In this document: piece after piece, positions 49,683-53,161 of the stretch
Layout: every line of letters begins with the position of its first letter
How positions within the stretch are numbered: position 1 is the stretch's first letter
Source: an uncultured Alphaproteobacteria bacterium
GTDB lineage: Bacteria; Pseudomonadota; Alphaproteobacteria; HIMB59; GCA-002718135
Length of the DNA stretch: 64,000 nucleotides
NCBI GenBank assembly: GCA_902620425.1
Contig: CACNHX010000001.1
Location: forward strand, 414,903 to 478,902
Direction of reading: 5' to 3'
The notes under the pieces: model-generated
Database searches by the model: none
What the model was told of the DNA's origin: nothing
What the model saw: only the letters and a program-made list of their open reading frames with translations
Position numbers and translations under genes: made by a program

Positions 49683-50932
49683 GTATTGAAAATAATATTA
49701 TTGAATTAGGCAAAAAAGCAAAATCTGCCTCTCTAAATATGAAAGTCTGTAGCAGTGATCAAAAAAATCTTGCTTTAACAAAACTCACTAAAAATTTAGA
49801 TAAAAATAGAAATAAAATTCTTGAAGCAAATAAAATAGATTTAGAAAATGGTGAAAAAAAATCTTTAGCTAAGCCTTTAATAAATAGACTTACATTAACT
49901 GAAAAATCTATTGATGGATTGATTACATCAATTGAAGATATAATCGAAATACCAGATCCAATTGGCATTACGTTAGAAGAATGGGAAAGACCTAATGGTT
50001 TAAAGTTTCGTAAAATTTCAACACCACTTGGTGTATTAGGGGTAATTTATGAATCCAGACCGAACGTCACTGTTGATGCGTCTTGTCTTTCCATAAAATC
50101 TGGTAATTGTATAATTTTAAGAGGCGGTAGTGATAGTTTTCATTCCTCTAAAGAATTGGTAAATAATATTACAAATGCTTTCACGGAAGCTGGCCTCCCA
50201 GAACATTGTGTCCAAATGATTAATACACCTGAAAGAGAAGCAGTTGATCATTTACTAAGCATGAGAGATTATGTTGACGTTATTATTCCTAGGGGTGGCA
50301 AAGGTTTGATTGAAAAAATTAATTCAGCAAGCAAAATACCCGTTATCAAACATTTAGATGGTATATGTCATGTGTATGTAGATAAAGATGCTGATTTAAG
50401 CATTGCTGAAAAAGTAGTTTTTAATAGTAAAATGAGACGTCCTGAAATTTGTGGTGCTGCAGAAACACTTTTAATTGATGAAAAAATTAAAGACGAAGCA
50501 ATGAAAATATTAAAACCTCTAAAAGAAGTAAATTGTGAAATTCGAGGCGATGAATATATTCAGTCTTTAGATAACGATTTTAAAACGGCAAGTGAAGAAG
50601 ATTGGTCATTAGAATATTTAGATAAAATTTTATCAGTAAAAATTGTTTCAGGAGTTGATGAAGCGGTTAAGCATATAAATAATTATTCTTCTGGACATAC
50701 GGAAAGTATAATTACACAAAGTGAAAAAACCTTTGAAAAATTTTATAATAAAATTGACAGCGCAATAATACTTAAAAATGCATCTACACAATTTGCAGAT
50801 GGCGGTGAATTTGGTTTTGGTGCTGAGATAGGAATCTCAACAGACAAAATACATGTAAGAGGACCAGTGGGAACAAAACATTTAACTACATTTAAATATG
50901 TAGTTAATGGTAGTGGTCAGGAAAGACCTTAA
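49679..50932 (+). CDS. proA: Gamma-glutamyl phosphate reductase
   Basis: IYESRPNVT, ICGAAET, FADGGEFGFGAEIGIST, RGPVG. Confidence 0.96.
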
Positions 50933-51511
50933 TTGAAAAAGATTGGACTTCTGGGAGGGTCTTTTGATCCACCACATCGAGGGCATCTATTTATTTCAAA
51001 TGAAGCTAAAAAAGTATTACATCTAGATGAAATTTGGTGGTTAGTTACACCTCAGAACCCTTTGAAGATTTCAAAACCTGCAACATACGAAGAAAGATTA
51101 CAAAATTGTAAACAAATTACAAAAAATTTTCCTATAAAAATATTAGAAGTAGAAAAAAAAATTAAATCTCAATACTCTTATCAAACAATTAAATTTCTAA
51201 TTCAATATTATAAAAATATTAAATTTTTTTGGTTAATGGGTGCAGACAATTTAGTTAATTTCCACGAATGGGAAAAATGGCAATCAATTTTTCATATTAT
51301 CTCTATTGTTATTTTTAGAAGACATGGATATAATACAAATGCTTTGAAAAGTGTTGCAGCAAAAAAATTTATTCATCACAAATATATAGCTCAAGACATA
51401 GAACATGTTTCAAAAAAAATTCCTGCATGGACTTTGATTCAAAATAAAGAAATTAAAATTTCATCATCTGAAATTAGAAATCAAAGAAATAAATTAAGAG
51501 GCAAATATTAA
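50933..51511 (+). CDS. nadD: Nicotinate-nucleotide adenylyltransferase
   Basis: GGSFDPPHRGH, LMGADNL, ISSSEIR; TTG start. Confidence 0.92.
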   Translation: MKKIGLLGGSFDPPHRGHLFISNEAKKVLHLDEIWWLVTPQNPLKISKPATYEERLQNCKQITKNFPIKILEVEKKIKSQYSYQTIKFLIQYYKNIKFFWLMGADNLVNFHEWEKWQSIFHIISIVIFRRHGYNTNALKSVAAKKFIHHKYIAQDIEHVSKKIPAWTLIQNKEIKISSSEIRNQRNKLRGKY

Positions 51512-51860
51512 TAAAATTACTTCATTAACAGAAAATATTGTATCAATACTAAGTGATGCAAAAGCTGAAGATATAAAAGTAATTGATTTATCTAATAAAT
51601 CATCCGTTGCTGATGCCTTTGTGATTGCTACCTGTAGATCAACTAGACATTCAGATGCTACAGCAGATGAAATGGTAAAAAAATTAAAAAAAGCAGGGAT
51701 AAAATGTCCGAATCCTGAAGGAAGACCTCAATGTGACTGGATAATTGTTGATGCAGGTGAGATCATTGTTCATTTGTTTCGACAAGAAATTAGAGAATTA
51801 TATGCATTAGAAAAATTATGGGAAGTAAGCTTTGATTCTTCACAAACTAAACTAGCTTAA
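51507..51860 (+). CDS. rsfS: Ribosome silencing factor RsfS (probable non-canonical ATT start)
   Basis: In-frame extension upstream of the track's GTG gives KAEDIKVIDL...ADAFVIATCRSTRH, plus WIIVDAGEIIVHLF and YALEKLW. Start coordinate is inferred. Confidence 0.85.
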   Translation: MNKITSLTENIVSILSDAKAEDIKVIDLSNKSSVADAFVIATCRSTRHSDATADEMVKKLKKAGIKCPNPEGRPQCDWIIVDAGEIIVHLFRQEIRELYALEKLWEVSFDSSQTKLA

Positions 51861-51865
51861 AATAT

Positions 51866-53161
51866 ATGATAATTTCAAAAAATGTATTTTTAAAAGTAAT
51901 ACTACTGTTCACCCTCGTTACACTTCTTGCACCTAAAACATATGGATCTTCTTCAGATGAAGAAAAATATAAATATTTAGATCTATTTGGACAAGTATTT
52001 GATAGGGTAAGATCTTCCTATGTGGAAGAGGTTACGGATCAAGAATTAATTGAAAAAGCGATTGATGGAATGTTGTCAGGTTTAGATCCTCATTCTGGTT
52101 TTATGAATGAAGAAGTATTTCAAGAAATGCAAATGGATACTGAGGGTAAATTTGGTGGATTAGGTATTGAAATTACCATGGAGGAAGGTTTTGTGAAAGT
52201 CATTGCTCCGATAGAAGACACACCGGCATATGATGCTGGAGTTCTTGCAGGTGATTATATTATTCAAATAGACGAAACACCTGTTTTTGGTCTAACTCTA
52301 AATGAAGCTGTTGAATTAATGAGAGGTAAAAAAGGTGAGCCAATAGTAATTACTATTTCAAGAGCAAATACTGAACCCTTTGAGATTGAAATTATCAGAG
52401 ATTATATCAAAATTAGATCAGTTAAAAGTGAAGTGCTTAACAATATTGGATACTTAAGAATAACATCTTTTAATGAACAAACAGAAAGTGGTCTTCTAAA
52501 TGCTATAAAAAAGATTGAACAAGAAAAGAAAATAAAAGGTTACGTTTTAGATGTACGGTCAAACCCAGGCGGTCTTCTTACACAAGCAGTTAAGGTAACG
52601 GATATATTCTTGGAAAGAGGAGAAATTGTTTCAACAAGAGGTAGAGATAAAAAAGACATAAGAAGATATCGTGCAAAAAAATCTGATAGAACTAATGGAA
52701 AACCACTTGTTGTAATTATTGATGGTGGTTCTGCATCAGCTTCTGAAATTGTTGCAGGCGCACTTCAAGATCATAAAAGAGCAATCATTATAGGTACACA
52801 ATCTTTTGGAAAGGGTTCAGTTCAAACAATAATTCCTTTCCAAGTTTCAAATAGTGATAATCTAACTGGTATAAGATTAACTACCGCCAGATATTATACT
52901 CCTTCAGGTGAATCAATCCAAGGCAAGGGTATTGTTCCAGATATAATCATTGAACAAGGAGAATTTGAATCTTTTGATTATAAAAGATTTTCTGAATCGG
53001 ATCTAAAAGACTCTCTTGATAAAAATAATGAAGAAGATGTAGAAGAAAATGAAGATAATGAATTAAGTGAATTTGAAAAACGTTTAGAGATTGATTATCA
53101 ACTTCGAAGAGCCTTTGATCTTGTGCAAGGTGTAAGTCTCTTTAATGAAACTCAAGAATAA
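51866..53161 (+). CDS. ctpA: Carboxy-terminal processing protease (S41)
   Basis: LDPHS, GGLGIE (PDZ), DVRSNPGG, SASASEIVAG, FGKGSVQ. Confidence 0.93.
   Translation: MIISKNVFLKVILLFTLVTLLAPKTYGSSSDEEKYKYLDLFGQVFDRVRSSYVEEVTDQELIEKAIDGMLSGLDPHSGFMNEEVFQEMQMDTEGKFGGLGIEITMEEGFVKVIAPIEDTPAYDAGVLAGDYIIQIDETPVFGLTLNEAVELMRGKKGEPIVITISRANTEPFEIEIIRDYIKIRSVKSEVLNNIGYLRITSFNEQTESGLLNAIKKIEQEKKIKGYVLDVRSNPGGLLTQAVKVTDIFLERGEIVSTRGRDKKDIRRYRAKKSDRTNGKPLVVIIDGGSASASEIVAGALQDHKRAIIIGTQSFGKGSVQTIIPFQVSNSDNLTGIRLTTARYYTPSGESIQGKGIVPDIIIEQGEFESFDYKRFSESDLKDSLDKNNEEDVEENEDNELSEFEKRLEIDYQLRRAFDLVQGVSLFNETQE

What the first reader, a model, noticed from the sequence alone, without database searches (positions are those of the whole stretch)
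51495..51860. rsfS has no ATG/GTG/TTG for its conserved N-terminus: probable AUU initiation
Seen: between the in-frame TAA (51495-51497) and the internal GTG (51621) lie 41 sense codons with no ATG, GTG, TTG or CTG, yet they encode the conserved RsfS N-terminus (ILSDAKAEDIKVIDL...ADAFV). An ATT at 51507 follows AGAGG (51497-51501) by 5 nt and overlaps the nadD stop. Established: AUU starts are rare and IF3-discriminated (infC, pcnB). Inference: the ribosome silencing factor is kept low or tuned by IF3 via its start codon.
Basis: partly seen in the sequence, partly recalled or inferred. Interest (0 to 1): 0.65.

Follow-up and report, generated by a model that had tools for sequence, protein, structure and literature searches.

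The report
rsfS gene starting at AUU
The gene for the ribosome silencing factor RsfS in this marine alphaproteobacterium almost certainly begins at a weak AUU codon; its whole family keeps that codon, and a similar AUA/AUC/AUU start recurs in about a quarter of sampled alphaproteobacterial families, so gene finders usually cut the protein short.

Summary
The rsfS frame is open from 51498 to 51860 and has no ATG, GTG, TTG or CTG before GTG 51621. The Pfam RsfS domain starts at about 51534, so a GTG start would delete a third of the domain.

ATT 51507 lies 5 nt after AGAGG and shares its last base with the nadD stop (ATTAA). In 73 distinct junctions from the family (6 genera, single-cell and metagenome assemblies) this ATT is invariant. 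A G-rich Shine-Dalgarno sits 5-7 nt upstream in all 73, and 27 have no canonical start at all. Close relatives carry TTG six codons downstream, but that codon varies TTG/TTA/CTG/ATA like an ordinary Leu/Ile codon.

The pattern reaches beyond this family. In 141 alphaproteobacterial families, 37 have an in-frame ATA/ATC/ATT behind a strong Shine-Dalgarno, peaking 16 codons before the domain. Only 11 have a canonical codon with such a site. Forty-two non-alpha Pseudomonadota use ATG/TTG/GTG.

I found no paper describing this. NCBI has annotated ATT starts for rsfS in two records, one at a different ATT.

Control by IF3 is an inference.

The parts
50933..51511 (+). nadD (nicotinate-nucleotide adenylyltransferase). 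Its TTG start abuts the proA stop, and its stop TAA at 51509-51511 overlaps the rsfS start.
   Evidence: PF01467, E=9e-22. The same nadD-rsfS order is seen in relatives' called genes.
51497..51501 (+). Shine-Dalgarno AGAGG, 5 nt upstream of the AUU start, lying inside the last nadD codons.
   Evidence: A G-rich SD occurs 5-7 nt before the ATT in 73/73 family junctions: AGAGG 58, GAGG 11, AGGG 3, AAGGA 1. Its phase relative to nadD codons differs between lineages. Only about 12% of this genome's genes have an SD. The 16S 3' end is the canonical CCTCC.
51507..51509 (+). ATT, the proposed initiation codon of rsfS (read as fMet).
   Evidence: Invariant in 72/72 distinct CDS, whereas all 7 other conserved Ile columns vary. 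Invariant in 8/8 metagenome contigs. It is the only near-cognate codon with an SD.
51507..51860 (+). rsfS coding sequence as proposed, 117 aa (MNKITSLTENIV...).
   Evidence: residue 7 aligns with residue 6 of the 105-aa E. coli RsfS, so the N-terminus is of normal length.
51525..51527 (+). TTA (Leu7). This codon is TTG in most close relatives, and gene finders use it there as the start (111-aa product).
   Evidence: Column 8 of the family alignment: TTG 41, TTA 23, ATA 3, CTA 2, CTG 1 and others. No SD precedes it.
51537..51539 (+). Third in-frame ATT. NCBI uses the equivalent codon as the CDS start in a record with an identical junction (107-aa product).
   Evidence: This column varies ATT/ATC/ATA/GTC/GTA/GCT in the family and has no SD.
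51621..51623 (+). GTG, the first canonical in-frame start. Automated gene calling on this contig starts here (79-aa product).
   Evidence: The 79-aa product is on record for 281 contigs, one of them 485,882 bp long, which matches the length of the window's contig C1.
51866..53161 (+). Downstream C-terminal processing protease gene (ctpA-like), 5 nt after the rsfS stop. It shows that the genes are tightly packed and probably co-transcribed.
   Evidence: (Peptidase_S41/PDZ).

Best explanation
rsfS is translated from AUU at 51507-51509, decoded by initiator tRNA as fMet, and gives a 117-aa full-length RsfS. The Shine-Dalgarno AGAGG five bases upstream positions the 30S subunit in an unstructured, A/U-rich region. 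Because the AUU shares its last base with the nadD stop codon (AUUAA), ribosomes finishing nadD can also re-initiate there. The near-cognate codon is not a lesion. It is kept by selection throughout the family and is the local form of a habit seen widely in Alphaproteobacteria (AUA/AUC/AUU behind a strong SD). By analogy with E. coli, AUU/AUA/AUC initiate several-fold less well than AUG and are the class that IF3 rejects. The likely effect is therefore to keep RsfS synthesis low relative to nadD and to make it depend on initiation fidelity (IF3 level). Shown here: the anatomy, the conservation and the lack of alternatives. Inferred: fMet decoding, coupling, low output and IF3 sensitivity.
For: The domain begins at about 51534 and no canonical start precedes it.

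Family survey:
- ATT is present in 73/73 distinct junctions from 6 genera.
- An SD lies 5-7 nt upstream in 73/73.
- The nadD stop overlaps the ATT (T+AA or T+AG) in 71/73, and ATT is kept in the 2 junctions without overlap.
- 27/73 have no ATG/GTG/TTG from the in-frame stop to codon +12.
- The nadD last codon varies (TAT/AAT/GAT), and the SD changes phase within nadD. The conserved elements are therefore the motif and the ATT, not the NadD residues.
- The start column is the only Ile-coded column without synonymous change.

Other evidence from this lineage:
- 8 metagenome contigs all show ATT.
- Genome-wide, rsfS has the second strongest coding signal in a start-less leader, after the prfB frameshift.
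- SD motifs are rare in this genome (12% against a 5% background), so this one is meaningful.

Class survey:
- In-frame ATH with an SD of 5 nt or more: 39 sites against 10 and 9 in the other two frames (p=1.6e-7), peaking at -16.
- ATA is enriched 5.8-fold upstream of the domain relative to the gene body (p=3e-9).
- ATA is conserved in a second family.
- The outgroup uses canonical starts.

Annotation and literature:
- NCBI annotates an ATT start with the same ATTAG overlap in a Sphingomonadales MAG.
- In an E. coli reporter, AUU was 6-8x weaker than AUG (PMC3592434).
Against: - There is no direct evidence of the protein's N-terminus or of initiating ribosomes.
- The T of ATT is also the first base of the nadD stop, so part of its invariance could come from nadD.
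- 41 of 72 family CDS have a TTG six codons downstream that could serve as a second or main start in those genomes.
- infC in this genus starts with TTG, so the classical AUU-based IF3 autoregulation is not documented in this lineage.
- In E. coli extracts, non-AUG starts do worse under nutrient limitation and ppGpp (PMC5499595). That does not fit simply with a starvation factor.
- My SD scoring and gene models are crude.
Confidence: 0.82

Rival explanations
1. Translation starts at the downstream canonical codons that gene finders choose: TTG at the position of 51525 in relatives, and GTG 51621 in this genome. The ATT and SD would then be conserved only as part of the nadD 3' end.
For: The 111-aa TTG product is the call on at least 1000 contigs and the 79-aa GTG product on 281. 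TTG is present in 41/72 family CDS. The T of ATT belongs to the nadD stop.
Against: - This genome has TTA, not TTG.
- The codon varies TTG/TTA/CTG/ATA/CTA/ATT/ATG like an internal hydrophobic residue, and no SD precedes it.
- The divergent lineages (65-78% identity) lack it altogether, yet keep an intact, indel-free frame from the ATT.
- A GTG 51621 start removes profile positions 1-32 of 98 and the equivalent of E. coli RsfS residues 1-37.
- The NadD C-terminal residues vary while ATT and GAGG do not.
Confidence: 0.08
2. Initiation is at another near-cognate codon: ATT 51537 (the NCBI choice in GCA_028141035.1) or ATT 51516.
For: NCBI starts the CDS at the equivalent of 51537 in a record with an identical junction. 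Both codons are in frame and upstream of most of the domain.
Against: - Neither has an SD.
- 51516 is TTT or GTT in some close relatives and a non-Ile codon in divergent ones.
- 51537 varies ATT/ATC/ATA/GTC/GTA/GCT (column 12) and lies inside the Pfam match (profile position 3).
Confidence: 0.05
3. RsfS is made as a NadD-RsfS fusion by a +1 frameshift, or by read-through, near the nadD stop, with the SD acting as the stimulator as in prfB.
For: An SD close to a stop codon with a frame change is the prfB geometry, and this genome has a typical prfB frameshift. In several lineages the SD lies 5-8 nt before overlapping stop/start codons.
Against: - The rsfS frame has a stop (TAA 51495) only 4 codons before the ATT, which leaves about 10 nt for a shift.
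- There is no slippery sequence.
- The last nadD codon differs between lineages (TAT/AAT/GAT/ACA).
- In many alphaproteobacterial loci the upstream gene ends 5-116 nt before the AUH, so no single shift site is conserved.
Confidence: 0.02
4. Artefact or decay: an assembly error at the start, or an rsfS pseudogene in this genome.
For: The genome is a draft (19 contigs, 90.8% complete), and reads could not be inspected.
Against: The same junction occurs in dozens of independent single-cell and metagenome assemblies. The ORF is intact and 97-100% identical in protein to relatives. The exact 79-aa tail product is seen on 281 contigs.
Confidence: 0.02

Closest known systems
E. coli infC (IF3) and pcnB, the classical AUU-initiated genes
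   Same: A near-cognate AUU start that is conserved among orthologues, preceded by a ribosome-binding site and close to the stop of the upstream gene (thrS-infC: UAA GGU AUU, PMC3592434). For infC, the product is also a translation factor that keeps ribosomal subunits apart.
   Different: No experiment shows IF3 dependence here. The gene is rsfS. In this genus infC itself starts with TTG. Here the start overlaps the upstream stop (AUUAA) rather than following it.
E. coli rsfS (ybeB, b0637)
   Same: It is the same protein family, and the N-terminus is of similar length. It also uses a weak start codon behind a strong SD: AGGGGG-N6-TTG.
   Different: UUG counts as canonical for IF3, whereas AUU does not. 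In E. coli the gene is separated from nadD by cobC and about 260 nt, so there is no overlap.
NCBI annotations of rsfS with ATT starts (GCA_016124315.1 Sphingomonadales MAG; GCA_028141035.1, junction identical to the window)
   Same: The pipeline already accepts ATT as the rsfS start. The Sphingomonadales case has the same SD-N-ATT-AG overlap with nadD.
   Different: For the window's own lineage NCBI picks the third ATT (equal to 51537), which has no SD and is not conserved. I found no publication and no statement that the trait is family- or class-wide.
Enterococcus faecalis ebpA ATT start (PMC4447247)
   Same: In silico analysis placed the start at an ATT upstream of the annotated ATG. The paper's title links this rare start codon to attenuated expression.
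   Different: That gene is a lineage-specific pilus gene. This one is a universally conserved ribosome factor with a class-wide pattern.

Membership tests
RsfS / Iojap (PF02410) | Full-length match to the family profile | tested here: met
   E=1.1e-31, profile positions 2-98 of 98, only if translation starts upstream of about 51534. PDB RsfS chains align from their residue 6.
Genes initiated at a near-cognate AUU (infC/pcnB type) | No ATG/GTG/TTG available upstream of the essential part of the protein | tested here: met
   41 codons without a canonical start. 27/73 family junctions likewise.
Genes initiated at a near-cognate AUU (infC/pcnB type) | The near-cognate codon is conserved among orthologues while neighbouring codons change | tested here: met
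   ATT 72/72; codons 2-11 are the most variable in the gene; the other Ile columns vary synonymously.
Genes initiated at a near-cognate AUU (infC/pcnB type) | Ribosome-binding site at functional spacing | tested here: met
   AGAGG at 5 nt; SD at 5-7 nt in 73/73; anti-SD present in the 16S.
Genes initiated at a near-cognate AUU (infC/pcnB type) | Mapped protein N-terminus or initiating ribosome at the AUU | not testable with these tools
Genes initiated at a near-cognate AUU (infC/pcnB type) | Expression rises when IF3 is limiting | not testable with these tools
   This needs reporter or IF3-titration experiments.
Translationally coupled overlapping gene pair | The stop of the upstream gene overlaps or abuts the start of the downstream gene on one transcript | tested here: met
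   ATTAA at 51507-51511. The overlap is kept in 71/73 junctions. ATAG/ATAA/ATTAG overlaps occur in other alphaproteobacterial lineages. Coupling itself was not measured.
Programmed +1 frameshift (prfB type) | Conserved slippery codon before an in-frame stop, with an SD about 3 nt upstream | tested here: not met
   There is no slippery site. The last nadD codon varies. The SD spacing fits initiation (5-7 nt), not a prfB-type shift.

The most novel reading that the evidence does not exclude
Across much of the Alphaproteobacteria, synthesis of the 50S-binding anti-association factor RsfS may be wired to initiation fidelity through a conserved AUA/AUC/AUU start codon. RsfS output would then rise when IF3, the 30S-binding anti-association factor, is scarce and fall when IF3 is abundant. 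This would be a homeostatic circuit between the two factors that keep ribosomal subunits apart, working like infC autoregulation but acting on a second gene.
Probability: 0.3. Interest if true: 0.8.

Novelty: new member of a known kind. Interest (0 to 1): 0.62.

Why it matters
Conserved near-cognate start codons are few, and where they have been studied (infC) they are regulatory devices. A second translation factor that keeps such a start across a whole family, and in similar form across many alphaproteobacterial families, gives a concrete and testable link between ribosome silencing and start-codon proofreading.

There is also a practical consequence. Automated gene calls truncate this protein on more than a thousand public contigs: 111 aa where a TTG happens to exist, and a non-functional 79 aa where it does not. 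One NCBI record picks a different ATT. Family-aware start rules would fix these calls.

Tried and rejected
2. Chance argument. The lack of canonical codons over 41 codons is not unusual in this genome (27-30%), so I dropped it as evidence.
3. TTG at +6 as the true start. Rejected because the codon shows synonymous and conservative variation and is absent in divergent lineages.
4. NadD-RsfS frameshift fusion. Rejected.
5. IF3 regulon support from infC. infC in this genus starts with an invariant TTG, so it gives no support.
6. mRNA structure masking the start. None found: -7 kcal/mol, z=0.47.
7. Literature. Six searches found nothing on rsfS with AUU/AUA starts or on nadD-rsfS coupling.
8. Exact look-up of ten AUH-start RsfS versions from other alphaproteobacteria. 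None is in the 15-billion-protein collection. That shows they are not called there; it does not show that the starts are wrong.
9. CTG starts. The in-frame excess (13 against 3) is what codon usage in high-GC genomes predicts, so I do not count it.
10. Family f2 (the genus that includes a complete 1.41-Mb genome). It mostly has GTG 15 codons before the domain. One genome has GCG there, and an in-frame ATT follows. This overlaps nadD coding sequence and I could not resolve it.

Full report
**Observation.** In the rsfS frame, TAA at 51495-51497 is followed by 41 sense codons with no ATG, GTG, TTG or CTG. GTG follows at 51621, and the stop is at 51858-51860. AGAGG (51497-51501) lies 5 nt before ATT 51507. 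The last base of that ATT is the first base of the nadD stop (TAA 51509-51511). Pfam RsfS matches the stop-to-stop translation from residue 13 (about 51534) over profile positions 2-98 of 98. A product starting at GTG 51621 keeps only positions 33-98. Against solved structures, residue 7 of the ATT-start product aligns with residue 6 of the 105-aa E. coli RsfS. The ATT start therefore gives a normal N-terminus, while the GTG start would remove the equivalent of E. coli residues 1-37. The bare absence of start codons is not significant: 27-30% of in-frame 41-codon windows in this 29% GC genome lack ATG/GTG/TTG. What matters is where the gap lies.

**Identity of the organism.** The window is contig C1 of a 1.54-Mb, 19-contig draft. 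Near-identical loci come from marine single-cell genomes labelled uncultured Alphaproteobacteria or Pelagibacteraceae bacterium AG-.... The sister family contains a complete 1,410,127-bp genome. From memory, that size matches strain HIMB59, which would place the window in the HIMB59/AEGEAN-169 group. I did not verify this.

**Family survey.** I searched the order (121 genomes, 106 with rsfS) and fetched the junctions. Among 73 distinct junction sequences from the window's family (genus g1 plus five other genera; protein identity down to about 46-60% in the other genera):
- The codon aligned with 51507 is ATT in all 73.
- A G-rich Shine-Dalgarno precedes it in all 73: AGAGG 58, GAGG 11, AGGG 3, AAGGA 1. 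The spacing is 5, 6 or 7 nt.
- The nadD stop is formed by the T of ATT plus AA or AG in 71. The two junctions without the overlap still have ATT.
- 27 of the 73 have no ATG/GTG/TTG anywhere between the in-frame stop and codon +12.

The last NadD residue varies (Tyr/Asn/Asp), and GAGG sits in a different codon phase of nadD in different lineages. The conserved elements are therefore the nucleotide motif and the ATT, not the NadD residues.

In a codon alignment of 72 distinct CDS, the start column is the only Ile-coded column with no variation. The seven other conserved Ile columns all show ATT/ATA/ATC or Val/Leu changes. Codons 2-11 are the most variable in the gene, yet they contain no stops and almost no indels. 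Eight metagenome contigs matched with the start triplet left free all read ATT.

**The other candidate starts.**
- *TTG six codons downstream.* Most close relatives carry TTG at the position of 51525-51527, where the window has TTA. Gene finders use it: the 111-aa product is on at least 1000 contigs. Across the family that column reads TTG 41, TTA 23, ATA 3, CTA 2, CTG 1 and others. That is the pattern of an internal Leu/Ile residue, and no SD precedes it.
- *GTG 51621.* Where TTG is absent, callers fall back to this codon. The 79-aa product is on 281 contigs, one of them 485,882 bp long, which matches the length of the window's contig.
- *ATT 51537.* NCBI annotated a record with an identical junction (GCA_028141035.1) from the ATT equal to 51537. 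That column varies ATT/ATC/ATA/GTC/GTA/GCT and has no SD.
- *ATT 51516.* This codon is TTT or GTT in some close relatives.

**Genome context.**
- A crude genome-wide scan (1536 gene models) ranks rsfS second for coding signal in a start-less leader. First is the known prfB frameshift. One membrane-protein gene on C10 is a weaker third. AUU initiation is therefore not a general habit of this genome.
- SD motifs precede only about 12% of genes, against a 5% background. The conserved SD here is therefore meaningful.
- The 16S 3' end is canonical.
- The region folds no better than shuffled sequence.
- proB, proA, nadD, rsfS and the ctpA-like gene overlap or nearly abut (gaps of -4, 0, -5 and 5 nt, counting from the ATT start). 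This implies one transcript.
- infC in this genus starts with an invariant TTG.

**Class-wide pattern.** I sampled one genome per family for 151 alphaproteobacterial families (143 with RsfS) and analysed 141 junctions.
- In the 45 codons before the domain, an ATA/ATC/ATT preceded at 4-10 nt by a match of 5 nt or more to AAGGAGGTGA occurs 39 times in frame. It occurs 10 and 9 times in the other two frames (binomial p=1.6e-7). The positions peak at -16 (13), -15 (6) and -17 (4).
- 37 loci have such a site, against 11 with an equally supported ATG/GTG/TTG.
- In the 81 loci with at least 55% GC, in-frame ATA is 5.8-fold more frequent upstream than in the gene body (32/3138 against 16/9056, p=3e-9). 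Half of the upstream ATAs are at -16 or -15.
- Fourteen loci have no canonical codon within 60 codons. Nine of them have SD+ATH.
- In several lineages the upstream gene's stop overlaps the start as ATAG, ATAA or ATTAG.
- Within a second family, ATA plus SD is conserved across four genera.
- Forty-two non-alpha Pseudomonadota have ATG, TTG or GTG at -8/-7 in almost every case. E. coli rsfS starts with TTG after AGGGGG.
- The Firmicutes and gammaproteobacterial loci also have canonical starts.

**What is already known.**
- Six literature searches found no paper on rsfS with AUU/AUA starts.
- NCBI annotates an ATT start with the same overlap geometry in one Sphingomonadales MAG. Related Novosphingobium and Qipengyuania genes use ATG.
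- Ten AUH-start versions from other families are absent from the protein collection.
- Earlier first-stage notes of this scan flagged rsfS without a canonical start in at least eight other genomes. These are unverified leads that agree with the survey.

**Mechanism.**
- *Shown:* the anatomy, the conservation and the lack of alternatives.
- *Established knowledge:* AUU, AUC and AUA are decoded by initiator tRNA at reduced efficiency and are not among the triplets IF3 treats as canonical (PMC5499595). In an E. coli reporter AUU was 6-8x weaker than AUG/GUG, and closely spaced cistrons are translated about half by re-initiation (PMC3592434).
- *Inferred:* RsfS is made from the AUU by SD-directed initiation plus re-initiation after nadD, at a low level that depends on IF3. 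The direction and physiological meaning of that dependence are open. In E. coli extracts, nutrient limitation and ppGpp disfavour non-AUG starts.

**Limits.**
- No reads, RNA or protein data were available.
- The genomes in the surveys are unnamed, so the taxonomic spread within the class is not mapped.
- SD scoring and anchoring by profile coordinates are approximate.
- Related genomes are not independent samples.

Noticed in passing
class-level loci L167-L307 (e.g. L192, L183, L229, L259, L273): In 37 of 141 alphaproteobacterial families, rsfS has an in-frame ATA/ATC/ATT behind a strong SD about 16 codons before the domain. ATA, otherwise very rare in these high-GC genes, is the commonest of the three. 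42 non-alpha Pseudomonadota use canonical starts.
   Followed up: yes
genome contig C10:7349-8647 (+), outside the window: A 432-codon membrane-protein ORF has a 71-codon leader with no ATG/GTG/TTG and a positive coding score (LLR 18.4). It may be a second non-canonical start in this genome.
   Followed up: no
genome contig C3:6328-6861 (-), outside the window; loci L308-L330: infC (IF3) in this genus starts with an invariant TTG. The ATT just before it varies (ATT/ACT/ATC/AAC), so the classical AUU start of infC is not used here.
   Followed up: partly
genome contig C2:214423-215454 (+), outside the window: prfB shows the usual programmed +1 frameshift (a 128-codon start-less second frame). 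It served as a positive control for the scan.
   Followed up: no
window 50930-50935: nadD starts with TTG directly abutting the proA stop (TAATTG). proB/proA overlap by ATGA. The whole proB-proA-nadD-rsfS-ctpA run has gaps of 5 nt or less.
   Followed up: no
whole genome G000: Shine-Dalgarno motifs precede only about 12% of genes (5% background) even though the anti-SD is canonical. Start usage among 1066 confident genes: ATG 865, TTG 138, GTG 63.
   Followed up: partly
L029 (G031, sister family f2): The sister genus uses GTG 15 codons before the domain. One genome has GCG there and no other canonical start. An in-frame ATT four codons downstream is conserved but overlaps nadD coding sequence.
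   Followed up: partly
public protein collection, cluster of the window's RsfS: Gene callers split this one gene into three products: 111 aa (at least 1000 contigs), 79 aa (281 contigs) and 107 aa (1 NCBI record). The 117-aa product proposed here is in no source.
   Followed up: yes
window 51860-51866: rsfS is followed after 5 nt by the ctpA-like protease gene, with no rlmH in between (also noted by another first-stage entry). In the Sphingomonadales loci rlmH (SPOUT_MTase) follows rsfS.
   Followed up: no
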